A stretch of 53,652 nt of DNA from an uncultured Planctomycetia bacterium (GCA_964450115.1 CAYVCD010000002.1:1-53652), one strand, 5' to 3'; numbered from the stretch's first letter, positions 25,901 through 44,300 are shown. Numbers and translations are program-made. Notes: generated by a model not told the origin, from the letters alone.

Positions 25901-26335
25901 AAGGTCGTGAAGATAGCTCCGGAGGACCTGCAATCTTTAAATGGCGGGAAAGATATAAATGTCGAATTCGCCGATGAGACAAAAGAGCTGGAGCTTCTCT
26001 TGAGGCACGTAAACTCTCGCTACCAAATAAATAACGGCATGCTCATGGGAGTCATTAAAGGCAGGACCGATGCTTTGTATGAATCCGGTATAAAGAACCT
26101 GGCCAAAGAAAAACATGTTCCTATAGTCTCCTTCGAGCATATAGAGTCCAACGATGTGGATAAGGAGATATACTCATTCAGAGAAGCCTTGTCGTTATTG
26201 ATCTCTATAACGAACGATACAACTCCCCTTAAAGACAGAGAGTGGTTTAAGCTGTTAAGGCCGATAGAAAAAGAAGATATCGATAGGATATATCAGGATT
26301 ACAGGCGTGCTCTAGAGGTGGCTATAAATGCGTAA
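19991..26335 (+). CDS. giant protein 2 (2,114 aa from ATG 19991), signal-peptide-like N-terminus, otherwise uncharacterised
   Basis: Uninterrupted frame. ATG 19991 gives MKLRFNKTYRIIAAMLLVAFLAQDISWA|YP. The track's TTG at 19943 lies inside the leader hairpin and is less likely. Only a HEAT-like repeat was recognised by eye (LLAALNDTNLQVRLAVISAMHKL, about 20521-20610). The stop overlaps the ORF3 start. Confidence 0.85.
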   Translation: MKLRFNKTYRIIAAMLLVAFLAQDISWAYPSQASNSNLAVPGLQNASVLSRLKKVLANKLFKKKGKSFNNSAIDTTIKKDPIPQNHLSANIVLPPDISAALKDIDEKNAKHIIDMIRRIYSHEKIGIMRQNHWLEYITGLLRDPRTQYKIVASKAAALIFEDSYHLDKMDEGSLRKAEEALLAALNDTNLQVRLAVISAMHKLVESRYDVRVYTLKQMAGRFDELIRKYHKVDATLEDAALRAMMALSSERDIELSSAYAVRAFDESLKAQAKTLGKNIRTFLKEERRSDFRMRGLSRVLDRCVADSGMGLTAYIRSVYFMKFIESLFSDEKTDIAKIKEYVLKLPRGSSNIDGRIIVYDPILKLADKELSEMYFTSGQDVRSLLSWRKDSEPVQAFDFYGEVFMTQSRVRFLEMADKGLVYYDANQKRFVTNPATFIDVASGETSMPDSDRITDGDALSMYIAELEAMECYIMSDAKSHEKNFLRPLFELLFNRLEKDFEGSEDFITYCRELIRRWPEGSYEIRKAMNDEEAILLEKFGKIKNSYATRNASIQLYGILLFYLTLKPQPYLGHLYDEYMKNSPPHNLSLYRTGISYHTRGDNVIYFFPKNLLFNGTNADALGKQRRGEAPFEDARKSENAAKILEAVKIWRRECPNLENRIKRFENNSTVSELIMKTSLIFSDPVHNVIRVVHAGRGRRLLFLPKNYLDSLRVDSEYDMKELAVWLNFAQRYLDIHDHMSGRKVAAHQVQKVLSELVRRSFEKEDTHLVEPEILKYRMSQLMKQDELIKYKDVLISLALEEAEVQVMEKISRPTKDELMILENAYGRIAHGYEVLGMKSRSERAYNGMADIITKIQSTDPWALPYELQVDLILTALRFGRWEDFINELKILLTGKGYPRDIRWTELSYIMKEIITPASMGPRSLESTIMRALAAQIAAADPRSAEVIKETADQANGMLSKYFKNPFGNLGMDDITGCPSPEALERLKKGEDNPNSLIDVENRLVRKVAGFESCTDIGRMDPYSISMTTRTANTLEGMGYILNEFRKPVGDAGISDAEVALINKSAVVVNMMDKNGHEQSCLLKILSREDPVEKAVENFLRNDLSVYEGLAKNNGCKNIILVLGKKHPSYPTNIIVPSERGEDILIVSYGSGEQPEHINAASAGDAVKKSGISDPDALEAFLKIQKEASLQSVYKAAEYFIGIGTPGAERLLKMAVTKKGHFQEEFLGEFIEARAVEDNIRYSRVIELGMERFGAEVDFVLEVDRSKYQSNTKGGFELEDGVYLGESKTSDKSNSLERVIEGAVSDKVERYLRVALNKRKSESGNPNAPLIKGIIFAIGGETVRSEGVVDFTITRLEEGDNLRSDGIGTFLALIPDTIVARGRDRLTFKERSFISDLLSDLKARGMLDSARISSLVPILKAALMEYGLSRTQFMISDAIKEAGADPYIGQTQNKEIWNSVFRALGARTGISLNMDFQSQKFLIDREASVNGRTDLEISYWQSGLSEFKNTRGRARCEFEIAGLPGRWVPLIDEHDQVVIAHISDSGSQKALNDYFVFRPDVTSKDLLIDKELERLALGSERLLYYARSGADPVPVRIPVTVSYDEKLTSNVLIGYIKAAIGGSRLLYYFGQQIMKSPARWEAWGLEPELGSAGAIKAVARPFGILGDKDEGSLVFDRHEKMARVSDIVVLDNKGKFGIVAEFGFHDMFQLYHKYANSFIFMAQHGSKISGQSSRLPQSVLLYADDIAIGGKKAARESQGISARKLILERLEQILDRASSSYQKEPNMLMPRTVYFMLGGALTADRPAYFKLPVIAQFRWHKKEGKYIPVKSGLKILEGEDNLEGLFQAAYSYIKRAEGLIPGPLAKPEATVAPSLEIPGSADILSAALVLGLRIADSVPGTANAIDDVVNSKALVLFADDILERGTAADLAYTLRESSTLNNSTIVLYGKRPGRAELLEKIISSSAQDKGIKVVKIAPEDLQSLNGGKDINVEFADETKELELLLRHVNSRYQINNGMLMGVIKGRTDALYESGIKNLAKEKHVPIVSFEHIESNDVDKEIYSFREALSLLISITNDTTPLKDREWFKLLRPIEKEDIDRIYQDYRRALEVAINA

Positions 26336-29300
26336 TAAATATTTAAGTTTAAAGCCCGGGCTAAATGGGTTGAGGGAAGCTTCCCCCCGAGTAGCGACTC
26401 TTATCCCAACCCGGGCTTTTCTAATGAAGATAATGGCAACGATCTTGATCGCGGCGTTCATCGCGCAGGATATCGCGTGGGCGAATCCCGAGATAGGCCA
26501 GGGTGTGCCTTCAAAGAGCTCGCTGCAGATACCGCTGATGTTGGGTCCGATGCGCGCCGGTGATGTCGGCATGCTTATGGAAGCGAAGGTCCAGCAGATA
26601 ATACGCTCGATACCGTTAGAGGAGCTTAAAGAGCGCAAATATAAATTGCCGATCGAAGAGAGGGGCATAAGATTTCAAATAACCTTCAGCGTAGATTCGA
26701 GCGAAAGGCTTGTGGCGAACTGCACGGCACCTGGAAAAAATCCGGTCAAACGAAAGTTTGTCATTAAAGACGACCTCACGTTCGCCACTGAGAACGAAGA
26801 GACGCCGAAAGAAGCATCATCGCTTCCGAAGTTCAGCGAAGCGCTTGCGAAGATGGATGCGCACATGAGGGAGAGCGCTTTTGAAAGGGCTAGGAGCGAT
26901 AACTATGAATATCATTTTGATGAAAATTCGCCTCAATTCCTGCTTCATGCCATCTTCATATATTTCGGAGACACTCCAGTCAATGACTTAAGCGCTATAG
27001 ATATATACCTGACCGTTATGGCCGGACAGAGTGACCAAAAGGTGAACCTTGCTCAGTCTTTTAATTTATTAAGGGGCATTATCCGCACCATACATAAGGA
27101 TGGCGAACTCTTACCTCCGCGTGAAACATTCAATAAAATGAGCCCTGAATCAATCAATGCCGTAATTGAAAAGATGCTCGCATTAAGAGAGAGCCATCTT
27201 AAGATCATCGATGAGTCGGAATCCAAATTTAAGGAGCTCATCCCTGACGTAGAATTTGCGTACGATTATCTGGACTATTTCAGAGGTCGTGTTGTCGAAT
27301 TTTATGATGAGCTCGCGGCAAGATACGCGGCGCTACTTGCGGCGAAGCACGCCAAAAAGGGGAAATCGGGCAAAAGCGAATATCTAGGCATGCTCGGAGC
27401 GGGGTTATTGCAAAAGCTATATGATAAGGTCGCCGATCACTTAATAACGCGATATGTAATTTATCTTCTCAGATGGCAGTTAAGCTCACCCTTGATAGCT
27501 CCTCTCGTAATATATTTTGGCGGGGGTTTTGCAGCTGTTGTATTGACCAATATAATAGGCGGTATTGTATTCTTCTGGCTCGATAAACTTATATTGAAGG
27601 AGCCGGGCAAATTATTCTCCGGCTGGAAAGATTTTGCCGGGGAATATCTTTTATATCTGGCAAGGTGGCAGCTGACTACTCCACTGATATGGATATTTAC
27701 ATATTATATGGGCACGGGCCTGTCATCAGCCATATATGCCAATATAATAGGTGGACTGATATTCTTCTGGGTCGATAGACGGATCTTGCGTCCTTCAGAG
27801 AGTTCGAAAAAGAGAGAAGACAGTCTACGAAGATCCGGCTCAGGATCTGTTCACGAACGCCATCTCTCCGATGTGCCGACCCCCGGAGCAGAGCCGATAT
27901 CCGATAGCCCCGCGGAATTGCTCAGGTACAAGCTCGACCAGGAAGCGCTGTGGAAGAGCGTGAATGATCCGCTTGCCGAAAGGAAGCGCGGCCCGCCTGA
28001 TAGGCGCGTCAATCTTGGCGGACCTGCAAAAAAATCTTCACATCCTACGATCACGCCGGTAATGCGCAAACGCGGTCAATTGATACGTAAGGTCAAGACA
28101 AGGCTGCATCTTTTAGGCCTAAGGCCTCTTGCTGTAAATGTTGTAGACGAGATCGCACGGATGGCGTCTAAGGACCCTTCCATAGAGAAGCTTAGTTTTT
28201 ATATGGTAATTAATGCCGCAAAAGCCAACCATATCAAATTGCAGTCCAGAACAATAGATAAGGACAAAAGGATTGCCGAGATAATAAGGCTGGCCAGAGT
28301 ATTTTACAGAGATAACGGGAGAAAGCCCACAGCCAGAGAGACTGTCGCCCTTATTAACAAAGAGGATCCTTACGCTGGCTGTACTTATTACAATTTTATG
28401 AAGTGGGTGGAAAAGAATGCTATAGCATACGATAAACTCGGGGTGTTTAAGCAGCATGCCGGATTGGGTGGTTTCGTGGACGAGGCCATTAAAAAGGCAA
28501 AAGAGATAGCCGGACAGACCGGTAGTAAAAAAATAAGACTGGCCGATCTGAGAGAAAAGCTTAAATTAAAACCGCCGGCGTTTGCAAACCGCGTAAGAAG
28601 TTTGAAAGAAAGTAGCGGTGTGGATTTATACGACGAGCTCAGTAAGGCCGGGTTCGAAATCATGCGAGGAGCATCCGCCAGCACGCCTCCGGCAAAGGAT
28701 GCAGGCAGGCCATCCACGCGTTCCGCTAAGCGTCCCGACAAAAATAAACCCCTGTATATTCCGATAGCGGTAGTCAAGACCCTGATCAGGCGTGCGCTTA
28801 GAAACGACGTCGTTCCCGATCAGTACCGCGCTACGATGTCAGCCGGCCCGAAAGGGCTTGACCGTCAGCGGGTAGAAAATTCTATAAAAGAATACGAAGC
28901 TCTTATGGATTTTAAGAGCGCAGATCACAGCCGGATAGATGCGGCAATAGATACCTTAAATGCGCTTAGCAGGATGGATTCTAAATATTATACATTGAGT
29001 TTATTGAGAAGAGCGGCCAGCGTTCTGGATTATGAAGATAAATATAGATTAAAGGCTATGAAGAACGCCGCGAGGCGACTATTCGGATCCATCCCTGATA
29101 ACCTCGTATTTATTTCCTCATCACCAGCAATTAACAGCAAGAAAAACGGCTCAGAGCCGGAAAGTGAAAAAATAATATCGGATCAGGTCGGGAGACTGAT
29201 CAATACCGCGGGCCAGTTCCCCAGGCTGACTGCGATCGGTGAGGTGAAATTGAGCGTCCTGTACGGGTTGGGTGACAAAAGTGCGGGAGATACGCTGGCG

Positions 29301-32300
29301 ACATCCAATTTACGTCTGGTGATCTCAATAGCTAAGAAACATAGAGGGCCGCGCCTTCAGTTCCAGGATCTTATACAGGAAGGGAATATAGGCTTATTAA
29401 CGGCTGTCAGCAGGTTCAAGCCTCAGAAAGGATACAAATTTTCCACATATGCGACATACTGGATCAGGCAGGCGATACAGAGATATGTTGAAGATAATAA
29501 GAATCATATAAGAATACCATCCTTTAGATATGACAGGGTGAATAAATTCCGCAAAATTTGTGAAAAAAAGCAGATAGATCCTTTTGATAAGAAAATGGAT
29601 CCGTCACAAATAGCTAAGGCGATCGGGTGGAAGGTGACCGAAGTAAAAAGAATGTTAGAAATATTATCGCTTATGTCAACAGCGTCTTTAGACTCTGCTC
29701 CCGATGGTAAAAATAAGCATGACATAGAATTTTCCTACGCAGCCAATACCGTTCAAAATGATCAAGGTCCTGGTATTCTTGAGCGGCAGGATGTGATCGA
29801 TGCCATTGTAAAGAATACTATAGAGCTGATAAGACAGAGGTCCAGGGAGAATAAAGAAAGAGATGCATCGGTATTTATATTGAGGATTCTCCCGGTCTTA
29901 TTGGGTACCGGCAAGAGCGTGCCGACCCTGAAAGAGATGAGCATGCGTTTTAAAATTTCGAAAGAGAGGGTTCGCCAGATTGTTAATAAATGCCAAACTG
30001 CTCTTGAGGATGCGTTGGCCTACATGGGCTTAAAAGTAGAAGATCTCGGTATGACCAAGAGACGTTCTGTAGCGAGCGACAAGGGTGAGCCGAAAGAATA
30101 TCACGGGCCGAGTGCCGGAAGAACGTCACCGATACGTTTACGCAGTCGCAATCTTCCCAGTGCTCCGGCTCGAGTGAAGCCGCGATTCAAAGGGTCGCCC
30201 TATGCCGTATTTCTTAATCTTAAAAAAGGTTCAGCATCGGTAGAGGAACTGCTCGGGATGATAAGCGGCGGAATAAAGAGCGCCCAGACGATAGAAGATG
30301 ACTTGAGAATATTACGCAGGGCCGGCGTAGTGGCTTCGTTAAGAGTAAAGTCGAGAGGCCCTGTCTTTAGAATATACGGGAAAATCGGTAAAACAAAGTT
30401 GGCAAGCATAGAATCGTTGCTGGAAGGATCTTACAGTCCGGGTAATATTACAAAAAATAGCCGCGGGACAGGCAGACAATTTGTAATAAGAAAATTACGC
30501 GAAATAGTCCTTTTTGATCCCGCAAGAACCGCCAGACAGTCGCCTGAGGAAATAGGCCGGGAAGCAAGAACGCTCCTGCTCAAGGAAAGCCTTGAGAGCC
30601 TCGAGGCCACTATCATGGCGTCTATGGTAGATGGCAAGGAAAGAACGGACCTTGTAAAGCTGATACGCGCTCGTATAAAAGGGGTCATTTCAGGACCATC
30701 TCCGGCCCGGGCCGAATGGGATGAAACAAGATGGACCGGTTCGGACACGCTCCCCAAGCGCCATTCGCTCGCCATACCCGGCGCGGAAGATGATATTATT
30801 AATACTTTTACGATAGGAAAGGGGCCGAGAAGATTAGCTGAGGGCGGAGCTATCCACTGTAATTATCTCTTCGCATACGATCCTGCGTCAAAGATAGGCG
30901 CTGCGGCGCATATCAGTTTAATAGATATGGACCCATTAAATGATAAAGATGTGGAGAGCGTTTCTAAAGGTATCAGAACTTTGGTAGAGACATTACAGCA
31001 TGCGGGAGCTAACGCGGCAGAACTGCGATTCACCATAGTGAGAAAAAAGGACGTCGCTCCTATCGAAGAGCTGTCTTTGCGGACCGAGGCTATGCTGGTC
31101 AATGCTTTTGGTAAGCTTGGGTTAATAAATTTTAATAGATCCCTAGTCGATAATGACTCGATGGTATTTTTGGATCTCGCAACCGGGGGCATATCACAAG
31201 AGGATAGGTCAGTAACCAATACCAAAATATCTGCTGATATTCTCAAGGCTATCGAATCGGATATCGCCGGTTTCGGATTGCGCACCTGTCTTGCCAAATC
31301 AGCGTTGCTTATATATATTTTGCGATCTTTAGGTGAAGAGGCAACGCTCATCGGCATGTTTCGCAAGGATGAAGACATGCCTTTTCAGTATTTGGTGCGT
31401 ACCGTTAGATGGGGGGACAGGGATATATCTCCTTTTGGTGGGGAGGCCGATGATTACGAGCGTACGGTCCCGGTACCTGAAACAGATTACGAAAGAGGCT
31501 TGTCATCTTTAAGAGAAGGAGGGTATCTTGCAAGAGCCGACCTGGAAATTTTAAACGCTTATAAAAAGGTGGTCCCAAATGCATTTGACATAGATGATGG
31601 CACGCTGATCTATGCTTTTGATTATGACGGAACTCTAGCGGATGCCACCGGACGCATGCAGGATGAAATTTCCGCGAGCTTGATCGCGCGCCTTAAGGCG
31701 GGTAAGAAGGTGGTTATGATAACAGGCAGGAACACCGCTTCACTGCATCATTATTTCTCATCCTATATACCTTTAGAGACACTTAAGCGGTACCATAAAA
31801 ATATTATATTTATGGCGGAATTGGGAACCGAAGTCGGGCGCTTCAACGAAGATGGAGAGCTATATGTAGACCGGAAGAACAGTATGCCTCTCGATAGCGC
31901 GAAAAAACGCCAAATAGACGCGGTCTGTTATGAGGTGCTCCAGAAGCGCGGGCTGCACAATATAGGTGGAATAAATACAAGGATACTCCCTCATACCAAT
32001 CCGGGAGAATATCCCAAAGGCAAATCTATTGAAATAGGTTTGGAAAAATACGGGACTGTCACCATCCGGTTCTGGGAAGAGTCTTTAATGCATCATATGC
32101 CCGGGGTCGTCGAGGACCTGAGGCAGGGGTTAGTAGATATCGGATTTTATGTTGCGGCATCAAATGCAGCTATAGATATATCACCGATCGACAAGGCCGA
32201 CGCTGTGAAGAAGCTATTATCGATTATTAAAGACGAAGATGGCGAAGATATACCGCTTTCGAGTGTAGCAGTGTGTGGTGATAGCCAAAACGATTACGCT

Positions 32301-35300
32301 ATGCTGGGTATGAGTGTTGTCAAAGCAATATATGTAGGAAATAAAGAAAAGAAGGACCTGCCTGCCGCCGTTGCGGCAAACGTGCATATTCCTGCGAAGC
32401 GCGGTCCGGACGGGGTATTGGAGATATTAAGGAGTGGGTCGTTCTCTGCGCCCACGCAGGGTGGCGAACCCGCCGCCATGTCGAAGCCGGAGCCGGAAGC
32501 GCAGATCGCGCGCGGCGTCAATACGACAAAATTGTCCGAAGAACTTGTTGCCGAACGGAAGTTGATCTACGATATCCATAGCCGATGGCCGGCGGCGGTC
32601 ACGGTATTCGGGAGCGCGAGGATCCCGGAGAGCGATCCGTCATTCGTTAAGGCAAAGGAGCTGGGAGTCGCATTATACCGGGCAGGCCTTTCGATAAGGA
32701 CAGGCGCCGGTCCGTCTATGATGGAAGCGCCTTTCATGGGCTATCTCGAAGAACGGGAAAGATCCGGCGCGGCCAAGGAGCTATGGAACACGACCCAGGG
32801 CATACGCATAGAAGGCCTGCAGATCGAGCAGCATACGACCAAGTTTGTTGAGGATAACTACAGCTTTGATCATTTTGTCACAAGAAAGATGGGCCTTTAT
32901 AATAACTGCCGCGGCATAGTGGTGTTTCCCGGGGGATTCGGAACGGTGGACGAACTTATTGAAGTATGGTTCAGGAAGATACCGATGGTATTGATCGGCA
33001 AGAGTTACTGGCAGCCTATCATAGACGCCATTTACCGAAGCTGGGCGGCAAAAGGATGGATGGAGTTGATCGAAGAGAAGCCGCTGATCACGGATTCGAT
33101 CGAAGAGGCAGTGGCTCATATCCGTTCGTCCAAAAAAGATCTTATGATAGAGTCAAGGGAAGATATGGAAGCGGCGAATGAGGATATAAGGTCCTCTCTT
33201 GTGACCCTCGAAACCTGGCAGCCGGCTGTTACCGTTATGGGTCAATCGGAGCTCTTAGATAATGTAGAAGCGGACGTGTTGACCGAGATGACGAAAGAAC
33301 TGCTCGCAAAAGGGATACCTGTGCGCTCGGCGACCGCGAACCATTACCTGAAAGTGACTCTGGAGAATGCCGCAGGGGACAAAAAAGATATGCTCCAGGC
33401 AGTACTGGCCGTTCCAAAGGAGAGCGCGCTAGTCCCGGGGCCGAATCGCATAGTTACCCATAATCTATCTAATCATCACGTTCTGGTAACCGAGAATTCG
33501 CGCGCTTTCGTCATTCTGCCCGGCCGCGCGAAGACACTCAGCCGTCTCTTTGACCTGGTAACGGTGATGCAGACAAAAAAAGTCAAGACCAGGCCCATCA
33601 TATTAGTAGGCAGTAAATTTTGGCAGCCGATAAAAGACGCGATCAAGGATGCGGCTCTCGAATATCCCTCAGGGCAGCTCATAAATCCGGAAGACGCTGA
33701 TTTGCTTCAAATAGTCGACACCGCCGAAGAAGCTCTTCGGATCATCAACATTGTAGATGCAGGTAGCATAGTTAGGGATGCGACCCGAATCGCGCGCCCT
33801 GGCGACATGCCGCCCGGCCCGAGAAATCCACGCGACAGATTCTTTAAACAGCCGCCGGATGAAGTATCGGAAGCGGCTACCAATAAGACGTATAAACCCG
33901 TGTCGCCTATCGGTGAAGACGATATTGTTACAGCGTTTAAGAAGGGATGGGAATACATCTGGATGCGCAGCACCAGAAAGGCAAAAGGCCGGTTCCTGCG
34001 GGAGGCCGCCAAAGCGCTGAAAAGAGAGCCGGGAGTATTAATAGTTAATGATTTAACATATGGGCTAAAGCGGATATGGGGGCACTCTGCGAGCGGGCTT
34101 ATAATATGGACAATGAAAAAATTCCGTATTAAGAATCCGACGGCTGCAATGAAGGCATTAAAGCGATATGTCGGTATAAAGGCAGTGCCGTGGACTAGAT
34201 ACGGGCAGCCTATCGGTGAAGACGATATTGTTACGGCGTTTAAGAAGAGATGGAAACACATCTGGGTGCGCAGCACCAGAAAGGCAAAAGGCCGGTTCCT
34301 GCGGGAGGCCGCCAAAGCGCTGAAAAAAGAGCCTGGAGCATTGACTGAACCCGATTTAAGGAATGGATTAAAGCGTGCATGGGGACGCTCTGCGAATGGG
34401 CTCACCAATTGGGCGAGAGAAGAATTTGATGTTCGGAGTTCAAAAGCGATTATGGAAGAATTGATGCGGTATGCCGGTATAGAACCAACGTCTCAGTCTA
34501 GACGTGTGATTGTAGAAGATATCACAGAAAAGACAATTTTACAGCATCTTAAGAAAAGGACCCGGAATATATGGTTAAGAAGCAACAGAGATGCCAAGAG
34601 AATGGCAGTCCTTTTACTTGCCAGAGAGCGGAACAAAGAGCCCAGAAAATTAAATGCGAAAGATTTTATTACTCCGATCCCATTATTTGGAAATCGTAGT
34701 ATAGGCGGAATTATACATTGGGCGCGCCACCACTTAGGTGTACAGGCGGGTGCTATGAGCAGTTATTTGCAAGCTATCCTTGACCTTAAAGAGTACCTTG
34801 GGATAGAAGATACTATTGTGCCGAAGAAGAGATGGGAAGCCAAGGTGGAGGCAGACTGGGGTGAGGTATGCGTCATACTGGATAAGTATGAGCATCTGAA
34901 AACCACGGAAGCAAATGTCCGCACGATCCTTAAAGGATGCCGTTTTAATAATAAGGAAACCGATCTGGCTATGGGACGGGAAGTTCAAAGAGGGAATCCA
35001 GCCGCTAGGGAAGCCATGATGATAGTTTATGAGACCGCCCTCGACTATCCGGCGGCAGGATTCAATAGAAGATATCCCGATATCAGTGTCGATGAATTCA
35101 AGTCCGCCGGCAGGATCGCTCTTGCCGGATGCGTTGAGCGCTATGATCCGGAAAGGGGTTTCGTATTCATAACGTTCATAGGCTACAGGAGCGACAGTAA
35201 GCGCGTCTTCGGACGCATCTCGGGTGCGATGGTCGATCTTGTCAGGAAAGTCCATGGCACCAGGCGAAAGGGGAAGGTGCGCGAAGTCCAGGGCGGAGCC

Positions 35301-38300
35301 CTTAAAGACTCTAAAGGTAAGGATGTGCCCTATATGGGCGAGGTCGCGGAAGGTGATGTCGCCAGAAGAAAACGTACCGAAAAAATGGCGGAACTATCCC
35401 AGGGGATCGCCGACCAAATAGGGGCAATACTTTCTAAGTCGCTTAAAAGTAGAAATAAGGAAAGAAATATAGAAATATTTATAGCAAATATTTCCGGTAA
35501 GCCACAATGGGAAATAGCGCGGCAATTTAATTTGACTGATTCCCGCGTTAGTCAGATCGTGAGCCAGTGCCGCCAGATCCTGCGAAACTCCAAAGATATA
35601 TTAGCTTCGAATGTTGTAGCATCCGGCGAGAGGATCGCGCGCCCTGGCGATATGCCGCCCGGCCCGAGAAATCCACGCGACAGATTCTTTAAACAGTCGC
35701 CGGATGAATACGGAGTGCCTTCAGCTAGAATGACCCCAGATAAGGATACCTGGCAGAATACGGATCCGCATCGCGAATACAGCCCGGCATTCAGCGAGAG
35801 CATCGTCTTGGCATTCGATAATTTGAAGCGGGACGGGGCGATACAAGAGACGCCTCTTATCTACATGCCGGCTCTAAGCAGGATGGCCGGGAAGAAGGTT
35901 TATCTGAAGGATGAATCACATCAACACGGCGGCTCGTTCAAGATACGAGGCGTGGCGTGGAGGATAAACGAGGCGATAGCGGAGCATATTAAAGGAATGG
36001 TCGAAGACCCGTCACTATGCGAAAAGCCGTTTTATATCGTTACGCAGACCGACGGAAATCACGGTGTCGCCACTATTGAGGCCACCAGGCTTTTGATAGA
36101 AAAATATAAAATGATCTATCCGGGTATCGCATCCGGCATTAATAAGATAGAGCCGATAGTATTCGGTATTAAGAATATGCCGGAAGTAAAAAAAGAGCTC
36201 ATGGCGAAAGCCCTCTCGGCTTACCGCAAGAGCGTTGGGCTTGCCGACCGGGGCATGGAGGACCTTGAATTTGCGAATTATGCCAAAGCCAAAGAAGCAA
36301 GGGAAGCATTTATCGCCGTAAATAAAGAGAGGTCCGCATACATAGAGCATGGAGGCGAAAGGATAATGGCGGGTCATGCAACGGCGGGTCTAGAGATAGA
36401 CGGGCAGCTTAAGATGCTCGGAATAGGCGACGACCGGAAGGTGGCGGTGCTCGTACCCGTCGGCGAAGGCGGCCCGGTGGGAATAGGCGCAGGAATAAAA
36501 TTAAATAGAAAGAATGCCAAAGCAGTGATAGTGCAGACGAGCGCATACCCGGCATTTGTGCGCACATTGCAAACAGGGGAGCTGGTATCCAATGAGCCCA
36601 ACCCGGCTCCGACAATTGTTTTAAAAGGTAAAAATATCGTATTTGAGGACGGCATAGCGGTCGATAAGCCCGCACCGGAAGCGGTCTCTGTAGCAGGGTC
36701 CGTCATAGACGCGGCCGTAGTTGTCGACTCAAGGTCCAGCCTTGACAGGGCCGCTCCTATATTATTGCGCGATCTGCGCGAGGCTACAAAAAATAATACG
36801 GCCGTAATAGGCGGCACCACATCAGCGACAGCAGAGGCGCTTATCCAATATCATGAGAGCCTGGCCGCGCTTAAAGAGGCGGATGTCATTGTGCTCTTTG
36901 GCACTGAAGGCAATGTCGATCCCGATCTTGTCGAATACATAGAATCGCGCATGAGAGAATCAGGGCCGTCACCGTATATGGAAAAGAATCATGATGCGTT
37001 AGCAAACGTCCAGATCATTCCGGCCAAAGAGAGTAAATATAAGACTTTCATTTTTGATCTTGGTAATGTGTTGCGCCTTTTTGATAATTCACGTATGGCG
37101 GCCGGTCTTAAGCCATATACGCATTTTAGCGAAGCGCAGATTCTAGAGAGACTTAAATCGTCCGAGGCAAAGCGCTTGTCCAGTATAGGCAGGATAGGTA
37201 ATGCAGATTTTATCAAGGCAATCAAAGAAGACCTTCAACTTAAAGACATAGACGATGAGACTTTCGTCAGGATCTATAATGATATTTACACTGATATCCC
37301 CCAGATGTTTGAACTCCTAAAGAAGCTTAAAACCGCCGGATACAGGATCGCGATACTTTCAGATATTACAAAAATACATTACGAATATACGCTGGCTACT
37401 TTGCCTGTAAGGCAGTATCTGGACGGATTCTTTGCATCATGCGAGCTCGGCGTTACCAAGCCGAACAGGGAAGCGTATTTGAAAGTCCTGTCCGCGCTTG
37501 ATGTAAGGCCCGAAGAGACGGTATTTATAGATGATACGCCTGCCAATGCTGATGGCGCAAAAAAACTCAATATTGCGGGAGTGCGGTTTGAAAACTTTAA
37601 AGTTCTGCTAGATGAATTATTTAAATTGGGTATTGCCAGCGATATGAAGGCGATTAAGTTGCGAAAATTGGCAGTGACAGGGGACGATCCAGAAGGTGCC
37701 GCCCCGCAAGCTCAAAACGATGAGGTGTCCCCAAATGGACCGTCCCCGGATACGGATGCTTCCAGCGCTACGGATAGGATGACAAAAGAGAGCAAGGTCC
37801 CTGAGAGGCACAGGCCGTCTTTTGGTCATCTGGTCTGGCTTAGAATAAGAAATATTTTTGAAAGAATCAAAGGCAGAAAGATAAACTATGTATCCGTATT
37901 AAAGGGCCTGCGAAAGTATGGCCCTAAGCATATTTTACTAATTACCGATTTTCGTGATGAGAAGAGAAGGATCGGAGATCTGATTCTATTTTATACCACG
38001 TTTGTGAAAGTTCTGCTTGGCCTCTATCCGGATTCAGACGTTACTATTGTGACAAGTCAGCCTGAGCTCTGGAGCAAGACTAATGGTAGGTTGAAGATTA
38101 TTCCGCAGGAAATGCTTATCAATATTGCGAGAAAAGATTCAGCTGGCATGCAGGCCGAATTGAAAAAGGTTAAGGAAGGGTTAGGGATAGATTTAATGAT
38201 AAACCTTGATAGGCATGACATGCCTGCTTTCAGGCAGGCAGCAAAAGAGGTCTTTCCGATAAGTTTCTTTGCCAATGCTGGCAAAGGGGCTTTGTTGAAT

Positions 38301-41300
38301 ACTCCGGATTTTGAAGAAGATTTGCCTCTCTTGCCATGGACGGACACATTTTGTAAGCAACTTAATATTGCCGGACAGGGACTTGATTTTGAAAGAGAAG
38401 CATTGGGATCGCATCAGTCAGACAAAAGAGATATATTATTCGATGTTACGCCCAAGGACAGGGAATGGCTGCGTTCGATTTTAGGCTTAGGCAATAATCC
38501 CATTCTATTACTTAATATATTCTCTATGAGGGAATGGAAGGACTGGCGGAACGCCGATGAAATAGCATATTTTATAACGACGCTTGTCAAAGAAAAGAAG
38601 ATGAAGGTTGTTATGCCGGCTCCCAGAAGCGCCGAACAACAGCAGCTTCTTATAAAAATATCCAAGCTGATACCGGCCGAGTTCAAAAAAGGTTTAATAA
38701 TCCCGGATCGCGGTTCACTGCAAACCTTGAAACTTATGATCGATGCGTCCGACTACGTGGTGACCGTCGATACGGGAGTAAGCCATCTCGCGGCCGCTTT
38801 AGGAAAAGAGCCGATAGTCCTATATTACCGCAGTTTTCGCAACAGGACATATTTTATTACGCTTCCGTGGCTGCCGTTTGCCACAAAAAAAAGCAAGTCC
38901 TATCTGACTTCAGCGATCCCTTCGGCATATCCGGCGGGAAAGATACTGGAGAAGATAGATTCGCAAATGCTTCGAAAGCAGGCTGTGAAGGAAGCGGTCA
39001 TGGTAAATGGCTGTGAAGTCATAACTAATGGCAAGAGTGAAGACCTTAAGTTAGAAATAAAAGGAGCGCTTGGCCTTAGAATAGAATATGACAGCGTTAG
39101 TGACGCGCTTGCGATAACGCGATCAGGACAAGTTCCATATTCAATTATTTTAAATGTCAAACCCGCGATCGATCAGAAAGAAAAAGGCGAAAGATTGTGG
39201 GCATATCATAGGACGAAGACAAAAAACTTTTCTTATCTTGACGAGAATAAGTCTAATGTGGAATTTTCCGATAGAGCATATGATAATCTCGTATTTGCTG
39301 AATCCGGGTCAGTATATTTGCATGCAGTTGCCGGCCTAAGCGTCATAAAGACCAAAGACGGCATTAAGATATACGGCGGGAACTATTTTAACGAGGCTGC
39401 GGACAGGATAACTGATCTACTGAAAGGTAAACAGCTCATCTATAGGAGGCCGGCGCATATATTGGAAAGGGTAAGAGAAAAGACCACCGAAAACGGCGTA
39501 AGGGATATTGTGGCCCGCTATTACGGTTTTGAAATATTGAGAGTGAGCGAAATTACAGGAGGCAGGGCGCAGGGTACGGTATTTCTCATAGAGACAAAAG
39601 ATTCGCGCAAGTATGTTTTCAAATTTTTAGGCAGAGATATAAAAGCTGCCGAAAGGCTTGTCCAAATATCGGGCAGTCTTAAAGAGTTCTTCCCGGCTCC
39701 CATAAAGGTAGCTATGCGTGATGAGCGCATTGTGAATGATGTTTTAATAAATGTAAACGGTGAGTTTGCCGCATTGGAGGAATATATCGAATCGCAGCGA
39801 ACAGGATCATACGATAGAGAATATTATTACAGCCTGGGCAGGAGGATGGCGGAATTCCATGAGCGCGGGAAGGCCTTGATCGATATGATCGGACCCGGTA
39901 GCGGCGGCTCTCTGCGGGGTTCCAATGCTATTTCAGCAGCCATGGTAAAGATGGAGCTTGTCATAGCCAGAAACAGCCTTTTGGTCAAAGCAGGCTTATT
40001 GAATAAGCCTGAGGAATATTTCCTTAAGATAAGTGATTCTCTGATAAATGAGTCGGAAAATATGTTGAATATAGATATAGAAAAGATCTTGCAAAATTCA
40101 CCACACAGACTTTTACACAACGATCTGTCAAGGGCAAATGTTTTGAAGGATGATTCCGGCAAATTGCGCTTCATCGATCTTGAAACATCAGGCGTTGGCA
40201 ATCGCGTACTTGATTTTACTCTGGCAATAATTGGCAACGCCGCATATAAGCCCCTAGAGTACGTGCCCGGAAGCCTTCAAGAGCTCATCACGGGGTATAA
40301 TTCGTACTCCGACGTACCGCTGACGGAAGATGAGGTTTTGGCGATAAAATGGCATATTATTCACAGGTTCCTTCTACAATTTATGGTAGATACAATTAAG
40401 AATCCGATAGAAAGAGACGGTCATCTTGACAAATTGTACAATGCATTTAAATCATACTGCGAGGAGTGTCCAATAAGCAAAGCAGGCGGTTCAAAAGTCC
40501 GTAAAGAAGGCATGATGCTGGATGCTGATGCGTCTTTGCAAAAGTTCGGCAATGATGATCAGCTTACTGAAGTACCGCCTAAAAGGGTGCCATTTGCCGT
40601 GAATTATCCCTTGGATATTTTTGAGGAAGAGACACCGGTAGGCTTGTCGGTATTTGATAATCAGGATGTGCTAAAACAGAGACTCAATGATAATATATAT
40701 TATTCTCAGGCACCACCCGACAGAAGAGAGAGGATATTTCAACGCATATTATTCCTGAAGAATGTTCTGCCATCCATCAATAAGTATTTCGCCGCAAATC
40801 ACCCCGAGCTTGAGATAATAAACATATCACTTTTTGGTTCATATGGCTATGCAGACGACGATGCTTCTCCTTCCGATATCGATTTTCTTGTCACTGTGCG
40901 CGGAAACATATTTGCGTTGGAGGAGATACAGATAGACCCTCAGCGGGATGACTTTTCAAAGTATCTTCCCTCATCAGTTAAGTCATTGGGATTCTCTATA
41001 AAGGGGGACGAGAACTTGCGCACCGGCGCTATAGATAAAACCACGTCGGTCAGGCCGCAGATGCAAAGGATCGTGCTGGACCGCACCGTTACAACATTGC
41101 GCGCGCGCCATATCGTTATATCAGGGCCAAATTTCAGGGAAGGACGGGACCTGATAAAGAGGAATGGATTATCGCATGTATCTGACTTGCTGTTTAATGC
41201 GTATATACGCCTGTTCGCAATAGATACTTTAAGAGGCGGATCGGAGGCGCAACGTCTGCGTAAGGTGCTTGCAAGGCTTTATGACGCGGCCATATATATG

Positions 41301-44300
41301 GCATATTTATATCCTTCTGAAAACGTAGATCCGGAGAGGATATATCAATTGAGAGTAAAGTTCGTAAATGGTAAAGCCGGGCAGGAAGAAGTTATCAATG
41401 AATGGGAAGCCGTTAAGTCCATTTTTGACAAGATCCATACAGAGTCGAGTGTCGTATCGGATAATTCCGGAGTGGCAGGGCGCATAGGCACCGGACATCC
41501 TAAGCAGTTATTTGCGTTCGATTATGACGGAACACTTGCGACTCCGGGTGGGCGCCTGAGCCATAATATGCTCGAACAGCTTGCGTATATACTTCTGGCC
41601 GGGCATGGAGTTGCGATAATAACAGCAAGGAATAAGGGGTGGTTCAGCGAAAACAATATATCTGTGGCCGCGTCTGTAATGGAGACCATCTTCCGATTGC
41701 GCCCAGCTATAACAGAATCTGAGCTAAACAGATGCATGGAAAAGATGTTTATGTTTACGGCGCGCGGAACTGAAAAATATTATTATCAATTTGCAGGCGG
41801 CACCTTAAATGAAAAGCTGGACATGAATTATTCGGCGTCATTCAGCAGCGATGATATTGCAAAGATAATGGATATAATACGAGCCATACTTCGAGATAAA
41901 GGCATTGAGGAAGATCTTGCAGAAAAAGAAGTTGTTGCCGTAAACAGGGAGCTTTCGGGAGCAATAAATATTCGCATATCGTTTAAAGCCGGAAGCAAGG
42001 GCATGATCTTAAAGGATGAAGTCGCCAATGAAATTAAAGAAGCTTTTAATAAAGAAAAGAGCTTATCGTCAGCTGCGGTAGAGATTTTTAGTAGAGGCAT
42101 AGGCATTAACCCCAAGGATAAGGCGGATGCTCTACGGCATTTAATGAAAAACATGGGATATAGCGGCATTGAATATTTTGGGAATGACCGTGATTCGGGT
42201 GATAAGAGCGCCTTTGAATTGGCGCAATCATGCAGAACGGGATTATTAGTATGTACCGAGGTGCCCGGGCCGGAAAGGATGCTGGAATTTATTAAATCTT
42301 ATAGAGGTAGGTCGCCTCCGCTACTTCCACTAAAAATACTCAAAAACAAAAAGACTAAGGATTTTGTCTTAAGGCGTCTAGGCCAATATTGGACTTTGAC
42401 GGAATTCCCGGTTGAATGGCTTGGTGAAATAATCGAACAGCTTGATAATTACTCCGATAACGAAGAGGTGGCGCTCAGGGTAGTACAGGAGAAGTTTCCA
42501 GAGCTGATAGATAAAGATTCGATGTTTAACAAAAAACTGAGGGCATTCAGGAAGATAAAGGTAAAGAATCTGGCCCAACGCGTTTCCTCATTTGTTAGTG
42601 GCCCTGTATTTATGGATTTTGGTGGCAGGGTGACTGATTTTGCGCGGGAGATTCTTCAGCAAAATACGTCTATGCAAAAAGTGGTTGTTACGGATATCCT
42701 GCCGCTTGACAAGCAGCCAGATGACCCACGAATAGAATTTGTGACACAACCGGAGTTATTCTCGACTTCGATGCCCCCTTCCTCCGTTGACACAATATTT
42801 GTATCGATGGTGCTTCATCATATGGACTATCTTACAAGACAGCGAACATTTAACCATCTGTATGACATATTGAAACCGGGAGGCCGCCTCATAATAGTAG
42901 AAGATAGTTATCCGCAGAACGATGGCGCAGCGAAGCAGGAAGACATTTTAATGAAGGAATTTTTGTCTTTCTCCGCACAGGAAAAATTCGAGCTTCTATG
43001 TTTCTTTGACTGGTTCGGAAATTGTCTTACCAGAAACCGGTCTAAAGCGATGTTAACCTATGCCTATGAACCGATGGAATATTGGGAGGGCCTGCTTTAT
43101 GGGCTTGGCATGAAAAAGATCGAATCGCAGTTTATCAATATCAATTTAGACCGTATCGACCTAGTGCCTCCGAAAGCATTGTTTGTATTTGAAAAGAATA
43201 CGGTAGGTCTATTGCCCAAACCGGAGTCGCCAGACATGGAGAAGGACGAGTCGCGGGGGAAGGATAGTTTATTAATGGATAAATTACCCGAACCTGATCA
43301 TAATCCTGATGAAGAAGGTGCCATGCCAGAAAGCGCCAACCCAGTCGCCAGTTCGGACGATGAAAAGCCTGCAAGTGATCCGCGCTACAAAACTTTGCTC
43401 GCACCGGAGCCCGGTAGTCCGGAAGAGGCGTACCAACGCCAGGTGAATCTGCCGGGGATCGGTGCGCCGTCAAGGCATAGTTTAAGATTCCGTCAGAGTG
43501 ATGATGTGAGCGAGCCGAAACCGCCGACGAAGATGGCGGGGGAAGAAAAGCTGGGAGTTTTAGTACGGGACGAATCCCATGCAAACGTGGCCGCAACCGG
43601 AAAGCACCGCGTAATAATATTGACTCCACGTCCTAATAGCGGGCGACATGAGCGAGAGATGAAATTAAATAGAATAAAGCATTCCCGTCAGCTTGACAGT
43701 GCTATAGGTGGGTTTTTTGAGGAGATATTGCCTCGGGCGCCACAGGGAACCGTAATGCGCCGTGAAATTAGCTGGCAGGAAAGGATAGGCACCGCTTTAG
43801 AAAACCCGAAGCTCGATGGAAACAAAAAAATCAAGGGTTTGAGTAGCGGGATAACCTCAATAATCGATCCGGGTACTCATAAGATCAAAGATATCAATGC
43901 GCTGCTTACACTAAACGCGAATTTTTACTTAGCAAACGGGCTTGGAGATATATTCGCATATTTCCAACATATTTCGCAGAATAGGCATGAATACGGATTT
44001 GATATCCCAAGAGAGGTAAGCCTTCCGGCTTATATCCTGTATTATTTTGGATTTGTATGGAAAAATCCGAAAGATCCGGAAGACGATGTATGGAAACGAT
44101 ATCTTAGGACGATAGTCAGGCCTGTAACGTACCCTTCTGCAGACCAGAGGCGGGAATTCAGAAGTAAATTGACAGCAAGCCTTAGTGAGGCAGGCAGCCT
44201 CAACCCGCTCGGAAAGATCAAAGACTTTGACGCTTTCACGCGTGTTGATAGCGTAGATTTCCTTATGAGTAACGGATCTAGCAGCGTATATCGTAGCTTC

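What the first reader, a model, noticed from the sequence alone, without database searches (positions are those of the whole stretch)
33789..35708. Junction repeat A: 75-nt direct repeats (73/75 identical) bracketing a repeat + sigma cassette
Seen: IARPGDMPPGPRNPRDRFFKQ(P/S)PDE is encoded at 33789-33863 and again at 35634-35708, in frame and with only two substitutions. The bracketed 1.77-kb segment holds three ~101-aa tandem repeats and sigma-like module #2. Directly outside lie the degenerate LOG domain (upstream) and the PLP enzyme (downstream). Inference: this is the footprint of an in-frame cassette insertion or duplication via the repeat, or a second class of boundary/processing motif.
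Basis: partly seen in the sequence, partly recalled or inferred. Interest (0 to 1): 0.72.

Follow-up and report, generated by a model that had tools for sequence, protein, structure and literature searches.

The report
Twin linker repeats flanking sigma module
Two almost identical 75-base stretches sit exactly at the two edges of a self-contained "helical repeat + sigma factor" module inside an 8,412-residue mosaic bacterial gene; they record a DNA-level copying event at module junctions and hint at how such giant genes are built and reshuffled.

Summary
Window 33789-33863 and 35634-35708 are 73/75 identical, in frame in one 8,412-aa ORF, with sharp edges. An independent assembly has both copies.

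They bracket a 590-aa module: three ~100-aa all-alpha repeats plus a sigma-70-family domain. The same module recurs in other giant proteins, those with names being Candidatus Omnitrophota. Homology to it stops just inside both copies. Homology to the downstream PLP-enzyme module starts right after copy 2. So the repeat is an inter-module spacer.

Codon identity (23/25 against 9.9 expected) shows DNA-level copying, not protein-level conservation. The motif was found in no other protein or contig searched.

The phenomenon is general, though. A second linker family occurs three times in the same ORF. Related giants carry their own isolated, near-identical junction repeats. In one of them a 93-nt repeat (90/93) brackets a CheR module.

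Best reading: footprint and substrate of linker-mediated module rearrangement in a modular giant gene. A functional boundary or cleavage motif is not excluded. No cassette-less variant and no protease were found.

The parts
26328..51566 (+). Giant ORF (8,412 aa). It is a mosaic of N-terminal hydrophobic segments, 3 sigma-like modules, 2 LOG, PALP, HAD x3, GT9, APH-type kinase, nucleotidyltransferase, methyltransferase, HTH_24 x4 and HTH_31 x5, plus a family-conserved C-terminal domain.
32586..33737 (+). Tandem LOG / Lysine_decarbox domains (aa ~2087-2470), the module upstream of copy 1.
   Evidence: Pfam PF03641, 2 stretches; internal duplication 2087-2235 vs 2297-2439
33789..33863 (+). Junction repeat A, copy 1 (aa 2488-2512), in a low-hydrophobicity linker.
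33906..34832 (+). Three tandem ~100-aa all-alpha repeats (aa 2527-2627, 2628-2727, 2731-2835). This is an uncharacterised domain that also repeats in related giant proteins (those with names are Candidatus Omnitrophota).
   Evidence: AF2 pLDDT 90.7; no PDB fold match
34833..35606 (+). Sigma-70-family module #2 (aa ~2836-3093). The sigma2 and sigma4 domains are confident; the region between them is disordered.
35634..35708 (+). Junction repeat A, copy 2 (aa 3103-3127).
35712..36950 (+). PLP-dependent enzyme (PALP) module. Homology to the PALP module of P0003 begins at aa 3129, two residues after copy 2 ends.
43377..43517 (+). Junction repeat B, copy 1 (aa 5684-5730).
46737..46883 (+). Junction repeat B, copy 2 (aa 6804-6852). 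It is the older, more diverged copy, and its core GIGxPSRHSLRFRQSDD is retained.
49035..49160 (+). Junction repeat B, copy 3 (aa 7570-7611), immediately upstream of sigma-like module #3.

Best explanation
The two 75-nt copies are one inter-module spacer of a giant modular gene, present on both sides of a discrete module (three helical repeats plus a sigma-70-family domain). One copy was made from the other at the DNA level, either by a duplication tied to insertion or relocation of the module, or by ectopic gene conversion. The event is much younger than the modules themselves. The spacer is not a conserved peptide motif. It is a lineage-private sequence at the exact seams between family-conserved modules. 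Because both copies are in the same frame and share a 45-nt perfect block, homologous recombination between them would delete the sigma module precisely and in frame, leaving LOG-A-PALP. The excised circle (module plus one A) could re-enter at another A copy. Such short seam repeats are therefore both the footprint and the substrate of module gain, loss and shuffling in these genes. Shown: the repeat, its seam position, DNA-level copying, module conservation, non-conserved module order, and the same pattern in other giants. Inferred: the direction and mechanism of the event, and that excision or reinsertion actually happens.
For: The repeat is exact with sharp edges. 23 of 25 shared residues use the same codon against 9.9 expected, P about 1e-8. 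There is no residual homology in the flanks. Family homologs of the bracketed module align only between the two copies. PALP homology to P0003 starts at aa 3129, right after copy 2. Module order differs in P0003: PALP at aa 141-566, cassette at 2277-2901, with the same N- and C-terminal domains. GC3 is LOG 0.59, A 0.62 and PALP 0.55, against 0.49 for the cassette. A second linker family B in the same ORF has 35/39 identical codons between B1 and B3, P about 1e-13, plus an older copy B2. Isolated near-identical short repeats occur in related giants P0003, P0014, P0017, P0020 and P0026; some of them are transmembrane helices rather than linkers, which argues for a DNA-level process rather than one peptide function. 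In P0026 the DNA could be read: a 93-nt repeat, 90/93 identical, 29/29 identical codons, sharp edges, bracketing a CheR module. No RNA family, RNA structure, promoter or terminator signal is present in or around the repeats.
Against: No genome or contig with a single A copy and no cassette was found. All three assemblies carry the cassette, and no close relative is in the collections searched. No donor copy of the cassette or of A exists elsewhere in the window. Two 75-nt direct repeats 1.8 kb apart should be deletion-prone, yet the arrangement is fixed in the consensus of three assemblies; this implies selection for the module and possibly for the linkers. B2 keeps its peptide core while diverging at synonymous sites, which points to some protein-level constraint on at least the B linker. 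The databases never returned the window's own giant, so near-identical relatives may have been withheld.
Confidence: 0.5

Rival explanations
1. Functional boundary motif. A (and B) are short linear peptides needed at module seams, for example cleavage sites of a polyprotein that releases sigma factors and enzymes from a membrane-anchored precursor, docking peptides, or PPG-type translational pause sites. On this view they are kept identical because one partner reads all copies, and gene conversion helps keep them uniform.
For: A and B lie only in low-hydrophobicity inter-domain linkers, exactly between modules. B occurs three times, and B2 keeps GIGxPSRHSLRFRQSDD despite synonymous divergence. 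An extra RHSL lies in another linker at aa 1478. The closest cassette homolog, P0002, ends in a B-like 'DPHYRT' right after its sigma module. Other giants each have their own repeated seam peptide preceding different modules, for example P0003 'LAQWSPFDDMSITTSGG.NLGTPE'. Three sigma modules embedded in a protein with N-terminal hydrophobic segments would need release to act as sigma factors (inference). The literature states that cleavage of the giant proteins of Omnitrophota, the likely source phylum, is an open question and that cleavage points are unknown.
Against: No peptidase domain was detected in the giant or in the two neighbouring large ORFs. Motif A is not conserved in any homolog and is absent from all searched collections. 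Only 5 of about 15 low-hydrophobicity linker segments found in the giant carry A or B. Near-identity at synonymous sites is not explained by peptide function. In other giants the repeated seam elements include transmembrane helices. A family 'PPGS-box' profile does not score A or B.
Confidence: 0.28
2. Tandem duplication followed by deletion. An ancestral cassette-A unit duplicated in tandem, and the first cassette copy was then lost, leaving A on both sides with no insertion from elsewhere.
For: Tandem duplication is active inside this gene: the 101-aa repeats r1/r2 are 85% nt identical over 195 nt, and HTH_24 and HTH_31 form arrays. The region after sigma module 1 aligns weakly with the region after A2, so a tail following sigma modules may be ancestral.
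Against: It needs a second, precise 1.77-kb in-frame deletion. No remnant of a first cassette copy lies between LOG and A1.
Confidence: 0.1
3. Artefact or selfish element. The repeat would be an assembly chimera, or the target-site duplication of a transposon, or the border of an intein-like element.
For: Direct repeats flanking an insert resemble target-site duplications.
Against: Independent assemblies are collinear. The repeat is shorter than the assembly k-mer. There are no terminal inverted repeats. No transposase, Hint/intein or integrase domain is present in the cassette. The insert is a family-conserved module in frame. There are no viral relatives.
Confidence: 0.03

Closest known systems
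Omnitrophota giant 'multi-enzyme metabolic cluster' proteins (class 1 of Nielsen & Lui, bioRxiv 10.64898/2026.06.07.730766; giant genes of West-Roberts et al., bioRxiv 10.1101/2023.11.21.568195)
   Same: One ORF is tiled by many unrelated Pfam domains (HAD, methyltransferase, kinases, glycosyltransferase) with membrane-anchoring segments. Homologs that carry names are Candidatus Omnitrophota.
   Different: At 8.4 kAA it is below their 10-kAA catalogue threshold. It carries three sigma-70-family modules and HTH arrays. Neither paper's text contains the words linker, direct repeat or gene conversion; the 2026 preprint analysed tandem nucleotide repeats only. The taxon of the window itself was not determined.
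Module shuffling and concerted evolution in modular PKS/NRPS genes (own knowledge, not checked in papers here)
   Same: These are giant modular ORFs in which recombination or gene conversion at conserved inter-module segments duplicates, deletes or swaps whole modules in frame, leaving near-identical DNA tracts.
   Different: There the recombining tracts lie in homologous domains or docking linkers shared by all modules. Here the modules on either side are unrelated, and only a private 75-nt spacer is shared.
RecA-dependent deletion between short direct repeats (minimal processing segment about 25-30 bp in E. coli; own knowledge)
   Same: A 45-nt perfect block within 73/75 identity, 1.8 kb apart and in the same frame, is a competent substrate for precise excision.
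   Different: No deletion or circle product was observed. The consensus of three assemblies keeps the module.
Polyproteins with repeated protease-recognition junctions (viral polyproteins; own knowledge)
   Same: Unrelated functional units sit in one ORF, separated by short repeated peptides in flexible linkers.
   Different: No protease was found. The motif is present at only some junctions and is not conserved among homologs. Cleavage is untested.
Group-3 (sigma28/FliA-like) sigma-70-family factors
   Same: Module #2 has confident sigma2 and sigma4 domains. The family profile hits FliA and RpoS structures (E 1e-41 to 1e-25), and Foldseek top hits are all sigma factors.
   Different: It is embedded mid-protein behind three novel helical repeats. 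The region between sigma2 and sigma4 is disordered. Pfam region 2 is not detected, and region 4 is below the gathering score when the module is scanned alone.

Membership tests
Omnitrophota class-1 giant multi-enzyme protein | Many distinct Pfam families tile one polypeptide, none dominating | tested here: met
   More than 12 unrelated families lie along 8,412 aa.
Omnitrophota class-1 giant multi-enzyme protein | Transmembrane helix or signal anchor | tested here: met
   A hydropathy scan finds three hydrophobic segments at aa 25-43, 387-405 and 464-482. This was a simple Kyte-Doolittle scan, not a dedicated predictor.
Omnitrophota class-1 giant multi-enzyme protein | Length >= 10,000 aa (catalogue threshold of the 2026 preprint) | tested here: not met
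   The ORF encodes 8,412 aa.
Omnitrophota class-1 giant multi-enzyme protein | Encoded by an Omnitrophota genome | tested here: inconclusive
   The only named homologs are Candidatus Omnitrophota MAG proteins. The window's own taxon could not be determined, and there is no close relative among GTDB species representatives.
Sigma-70 family sigma factor (module #2) | Sigma2 and sigma4 domains | tested here: met
   The AF2 model has both domains at pLDDT >90. Foldseek top hits are all sigma factors at prob 1.0. phmmer matches small sigma-like proteins at E about 1e-12. Pfam r4 scores only 20.6-29.3 bits and r2 is not detected.
Sigma-70 family sigma factor (module #2) | Free protein that binds core RNA polymerase and directs promoter recognition | not testable with these tools
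   The module sits at aa ~2836-3093 of an 8,412-aa ORF. Release or activity is unknown.
Protease-processed polyprotein | Protease domain in cis or in the operon | tested here: not met
   No peptidase family appears in the giant or in the 2,898-aa and 2,114-aa neighbours.
Protease-processed polyprotein | Recognition motif recurring at the junctions and conserved among homologs | tested here: not met
   A lies at 2 and B at 3 of about 15 linker segments. A and B are absent from homologs and from all collections searched. B-like 'DPHYRT' occurs only in P0002.
Protease-processed polyprotein | Cleavage products observed | not testable with these tools
   This needs proteomics or expression.
Transposon/IS insertion with target-site duplication, or intein | Transposase, terminal inverted repeats, or Hint domain inside the bracketed segment | tested here: not met
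Intragenic segmental duplication / gene-conversion tract | Identity at synonymous sites beyond that expected from protein conservation, with discrete tract edges | tested here: met
   23/25 same codons against 9.9 expected, P about 1e-8. The edges are sharp.
Intragenic segmental duplication / gene-conversion tract | Polarity of the event, or presence/absence polymorphism among relatives | not testable with these tools
   No close relatives or reads are available.

The most novel reading that the evidence does not exclude
The lineage-private seam peptides (A twice and B three times here, with analogous private repeats in other giants of this family, whose named members are Candidatus Omnitrophota) are the long-sought processing points of bacterial giant 'polyproteins'. 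A membrane-anchored 8,412-aa precursor would be cut at these seams to release sigma factors, HTH regulators and enzymes. The seams would co-evolve with a still unrecognised protease and would double as recombination sites that let modules be swapped in frame.
Probability: 0.12. Interest if true: 0.85.

Novelty: new variant of a known kind. Interest (0 to 1): 0.5.

Why it matters
Giant mosaic genes of Omnitrophota, the phylum this gene most likely belongs to, are described, but two basic questions are open. One is how dozens of unrelated modules get joined in frame. The other is whether the product is cut into pieces. Near-identical, lineage-private repeats sitting exactly at module seams give a concrete handle on both. 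They mark where recent rearrangement happened, and they predict a precise, testable in-frame excision product (LOG-A-PALP). They are also the first specific candidates for cleavage or docking points that proteomics could check. If the pattern holds across the phylum, it would describe a recombination-based 'cassette' grammar for building giant proteins. If not, this is simply a well-documented intragenic duplication.

Tried and rejected
- RNA element: the repeat folds no better than shuffles (z = 0.05). There is no Rfam hit in 33000-36500 at E <= 1.
- Internal promoter or terminator: counts are at or below the shuffle expectation.
- Transposon or intein: there are no terminal inverted repeats and no such domains.
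- Motif A elsewhere: it is absent from the rest of the window. The six JGI metagenome matches to DMPPGPRNP are unrelated proteins. There are none in viral contigs. No protein in the 5.8-billion-cluster set shares three 5-mers with A or B.
- First protein search with the cassette: it found nothing. The exhaustive HMMER search was needed.
- Orthologs lacking the cassette: the genome-contig scan found only one distant LOG hit, in an Ignavibacteria MAG. The exact giant is not in the collection.
- 'A is a vestigial PPGS box of the family's winged-helix module': a profile of 13 family boxes picks only aa 1288-1295 and neither A nor B, so I dropped this idea.
- P0002 as a stand-alone repeat-plus-sigma gene: it is a fragment of a 1.45-kb contig cut at both ends.
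- Identity of the ~100-aa repeat: no Pfam hit, no PDB sequence hit and no PDB fold match.
- A CheD-like impression at aa ~1500-1560: Pfam gives no support.
- DNA of P0020: not retrievable. P0003, P0014 and P0017 exceed the 5,000-aa look-up limit, so their seam repeats were checked at the protein level only.
Full report
**1. The observation**

Window 33789-33863 and 35634-35708 are 73/75 identical. Both copies lie in frame 0 of a single ORF, 26328-51566, which encodes 8,412 aa. They encode IARPGDMPPGPRNPRDRFFKQ(P/S)PDE at aa 2488-2512 and 3103-3127.

The two differences are a synonymous GAC/GAT and a CCG/TCG (Pro/Ser) change. Identity falls to background at both edges. An Arg precedes both copies but is coded differently. 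No third copy exists in the window at the DNA or peptide level. Chance cannot produce this.

It is not an assembly artefact either:
- An independent ENA assembly (ERZ27248937, L003) matches window 9991-36335 with 9 mismatches, no indel and no difference in the repeat or the segment between the copies.
- A second ENA assembly also carries an 8,412-aa product.
- The window differs from both assemblies by a few SNPs, so it is a third source.

**2. The setting**

The locus is a bacterial chromosome segment carrying S15, PNPase, dUTPase, BacA, FtsK, MiaB, PgsA and PgpA. Three large ORFs follow.

The giant ORF is a mosaic:
- Sigma70_r2 at aa 990-1058
- HAD/S6PP at 1763-2011
- two LOG (Lysine_decarbox) domains at about 2087-2470
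- the bracketed segment
- PALP at 3171-3523
- HAD at 3571-3750
- GT9 at 4056-4174
- an APH-type kinase at about 4584-4634
- a nucleotidyltransferase at about 4818-4869
- a second Hydrolase_3 at about 5062-5104
- a methyltransferase at about 5400-5530
- four HTH_24 and five HTH_31 units
- a third sigma region 4 at 7908-7959

A hydropathy scan finds three hydrophobic segments near the N-terminus and a series of low-hydrophobicity linkers. Both A copies fall in such linkers.

**3. What is bracketed**

The 590 aa between the copies have two parts.
- Three tandem ~100-aa units at aa 2527-2627, 2628-2727 and 2731-2835. The unit has no Pfam hit and no PDB sequence hit. It folds confidently as an all-alpha domain (pLDDT 90.7) with no structural match in the PDB (best E = 2).
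- A sigma-70-family module. phmmer links it to small sigma-like proteins at E about 1e-12. A family profile hits FliA/sigma28 and RpoS structures. The AF2 model of the window's own sequence has sigma2 and sigma4 domains above pLDDT 90, separated by a disordered stretch. Its Foldseek top hits are all sigma factors at probability 1.0. Pfam alone is weak: region 4 scores 20.6-29.3 bits and region 2 is not detected.

**4. The segment is a family-conserved module, and the repeats sit on its seams**

An exhaustive HMMER search of 1.84 billion representatives gave 58 hits. The best are other giant proteins: P0001 (6,142 aa), P0003 (7,288 aa), P0014 (6,667 aa) and P0017 (6,836 aa). The hits that carry names are Candidatus Omnitrophota MAG proteins.

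The alignments start at query positions 85-98 and end at 648-654. Copy 1 occupies 49-73 and copy 2 occupies 664-688. Homology therefore covers the module but neither copy.

P0003 shares the window giant's N-terminus (31%), its extreme C-terminal domain (44%) and its PALP module (45%). The PALP alignment begins at window aa 3129, two residues after copy 2 ends. In P0003, however, PALP lies at aa 141-566 and the repeat-plus-sigma module at 2277-2901.

So the modules are conserved, their order is not, and repeat A is exactly an inter-module spacer.

**5. The nature of the repeat**

Of the 25 residues shared by the two copies (including the preceding Arg), 23 use the same codon. The gene's codon usage predicts 9.9, giving P about 1e-8. 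Protein-level selection cannot explain this, so one copy was recently templated on the other. "Recently" is relative. The 2/75 divergence far exceeds the roughly 3e-4 divergence between the assemblies. It is far below the divergence between the paralogous modules.

The flanks share no older homology. The tract is therefore a discrete copy, not a conversion patch inside a longer paralogous region.

Other signals are absent:
- no RNA structure (z = 0.05)
- no Rfam family
- no promoter or terminator enrichment
- no terminal inverted repeats

The motif was found nowhere else:
- the JGI metagenome matches to DMPPGPRNP are unrelated proteins
- viral contigs hold none
- no protein cluster shares three 5-mers with it

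One caveat applies. No database search returned the window's own giant, so near-identical relatives appear to be withheld. "Absent elsewhere" therefore means absent from other lineages.

GC3 is higher in LOG (0.59), A (0.62) and PALP (0.55) than in the cassette (0.49). This mildly fits a module set between two compositionally similar neighbours.

**6. The same pattern elsewhere**

The same ORF has a second seam family, B, with three copies.
- B1 and B3 share 35 of 39 codons, P about 1e-13.
- B2 is older (81-84% nt identity) but keeps the core GIGxPSRHSLRFRQSDD, which is a sign of some peptide-level constraint.

Related giants carry their own isolated near-identical repeats:

| Protein | Repeat length | Identity | Nature or spacing |
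|---|---|---|---|
| P0003 | 24 aa | 23/24 | copies 2,664 aa apart; one copy ends about 30 aa before its repeat-plus-sigma module |
| P0017 | 31 aa | 30/31 | linker peptide |
| P0017 | 54 aa | 54/54 | hydrophobic segment |
| P0020 | 22 aa | 21/22 | linker peptide |
| P0014 | 34 aa | 32/34 | hydrophobic segment |
| P0026 | 31 aa | 29/31 | hydrophobic segment |

P0026 is the one case where DNA could be read (L013). There the repeat is 90/93 nt identical, 29/29 codons are the same, the edges are sharp, and it brackets a CheR methyltransferase module. The two other large ORFs of the window have no such repeats.

Seam repeats are thus a recurrent trait of this gene family, with lineage-private sequences. 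They include both linkers and hydrophobic (likely transmembrane) segments.

**7. Mechanism**

My best-supported reading (confidence about 0.5) is a DNA-level event at module seams. The spacer was duplicated, or converted, in connection with placing the repeat-plus-sigma module between LOG and PALP.

The result is a module flanked by in-frame direct repeats with a 45-nt perfect block. That is a competent substrate for precise in-frame excision and for re-entry at another copy (inference from general recombination knowledge). Applied repeatedly, this would give the shuffled module orders seen in the family.

The main rival (about 0.28) is that A and B are functional seam peptides, such as cleavage, docking or pause sites. 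In its favour:
- the seam positions of A and B
- the constraint on B2
- a B-like "DPHYRT" right after the sigma module of the closest homolog, P0002
- the logic that sigma modules in an anchored giant would need release

Against it:
- no protease domain
- no cross-lineage conservation of A
- presence at only some linkers
- the codon-level identity

The two readings are not exclusive.

A duplication-then-deletion route (about 0.1) needs an extra precise deletion. Artefact, transposon or intein origins are effectively excluded.

**8. Comparison with what is known**

The gene matches the "multi-enzyme metabolic cluster" class of Omnitrophota giant proteins. It is below that catalogue's 10-kAA cut-off, and the window's own taxon is inferred only from homologs.

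West-Roberts et al. state that whether such proteins are cleaved is open and that cleavage points are unknown. Neither preprint's text contains the words linker, direct repeat or gene conversion. The 2026 preprint analysed tandem nucleotide repeats only.

Mechanistically the nearest analogue is module recombination and concerted evolution in PKS/NRPS genes (own knowledge). The difference here is that the flanking modules are unrelated and only a private spacer is shared.

I rate this a new variant of a known kind and of moderate interest.

**9. Limits**

- No reads and no close relatives were available.
- Three giants with seam repeats are too long for the DNA look-up.
- Hence the polarity of the event, any presence/absence polymorphism, and any processing remain untested.
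- The decisive experiments are listed separately.

Noticed in passing
window 43377-43517, 46737-46883, 49035-49160: A second seam-repeat family (B: ...DP(H/R)YKTL.APEPGSPEEAYQRQVNLPGIG.PSRHSLRFRQSD) occurs three times in the giant ORF. B1 and B3 share 35/39 codons and a 60-nt perfect core. B2 is older but keeps the peptide core. 'RHSL' also occurs in another linker at aa 1478 (window ~30759).
   Followed up: partly
window 33906-34832; also P0001, P0003, P0007, P0014 and others: The ~100-aa all-alpha repeat that precedes sigma-like modules is an uncharacterised domain with up to 18 copies in P0001. It has no Pfam hit, no PDB sequence hit and no PDB fold match, despite a confident AF2 model (pLDDT 90.7).
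   Followed up: yes
window 1779-10475: A 2,898-aa ORF fuses a class-I fructose-bisphosphate aldolase (aa 1714-1996) and a phosphofructokinase (aa 2090-2446) behind about 1,700 aa with no Pfam hit. It is another enzyme-fusion giant in the same locus.
   Followed up: no
window 19991-26335: A 2,114-aa ORF has no Pfam hit at all. Its stop overlaps the start of the 8,412-aa ORF by 8 nt, which suggests translational coupling. The identical protein is also on a Logan contig from SRR8437217.
   Followed up: no
L013 7799-7891 and 9029-9121 (JGI 3300035659, Ga0373628_0000236): In the distant giant P0026, a 93-nt repeat (90/93 identical, all shared residues with identical codons, sharp edges) encodes a hydrophobic helix. 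It brackets a CheR methyltransferase module (aa 2663-2835).
   Followed up: yes
P0003 aa 2224-2247 and 4888-4911 (plus a degenerate copy near aa 1800): The closest full-length relative has its own private seam peptide, LAQWSPFDDMSITTSGG(Y/H)NLGTPE. It precedes three different modules, including its repeat-plus-sigma module. The DNA was not retrievable because the protein exceeds 5,000 aa.
   Followed up: partly
window 26328-51566, by module: GC3 varies between modules of the one ORF, from 0.46 to 0.59, with LOG and PALP highest. This is consistent with a mosaic origin of the modules.
   Followed up: partly
window 45838-46540 and ~46900-48100: Arrays of DNA-binding units sit inside the giant: four HTH_24 units with a 168-nt period (62-79% nt identity) and five HTH_31/HTH_3 units. 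Together with three sigma-like modules, this is an unusual load of transcription-factor domains for a protein with N-terminal hydrophobic anchors.
   Followed up: no
all database searches: No search returned the window's own giant protein, although two ENA assemblies encode an 8,412-aa product. Self or near-self entries seem to be withheld, so negative results apply only to other lineages.
   Followed up: no
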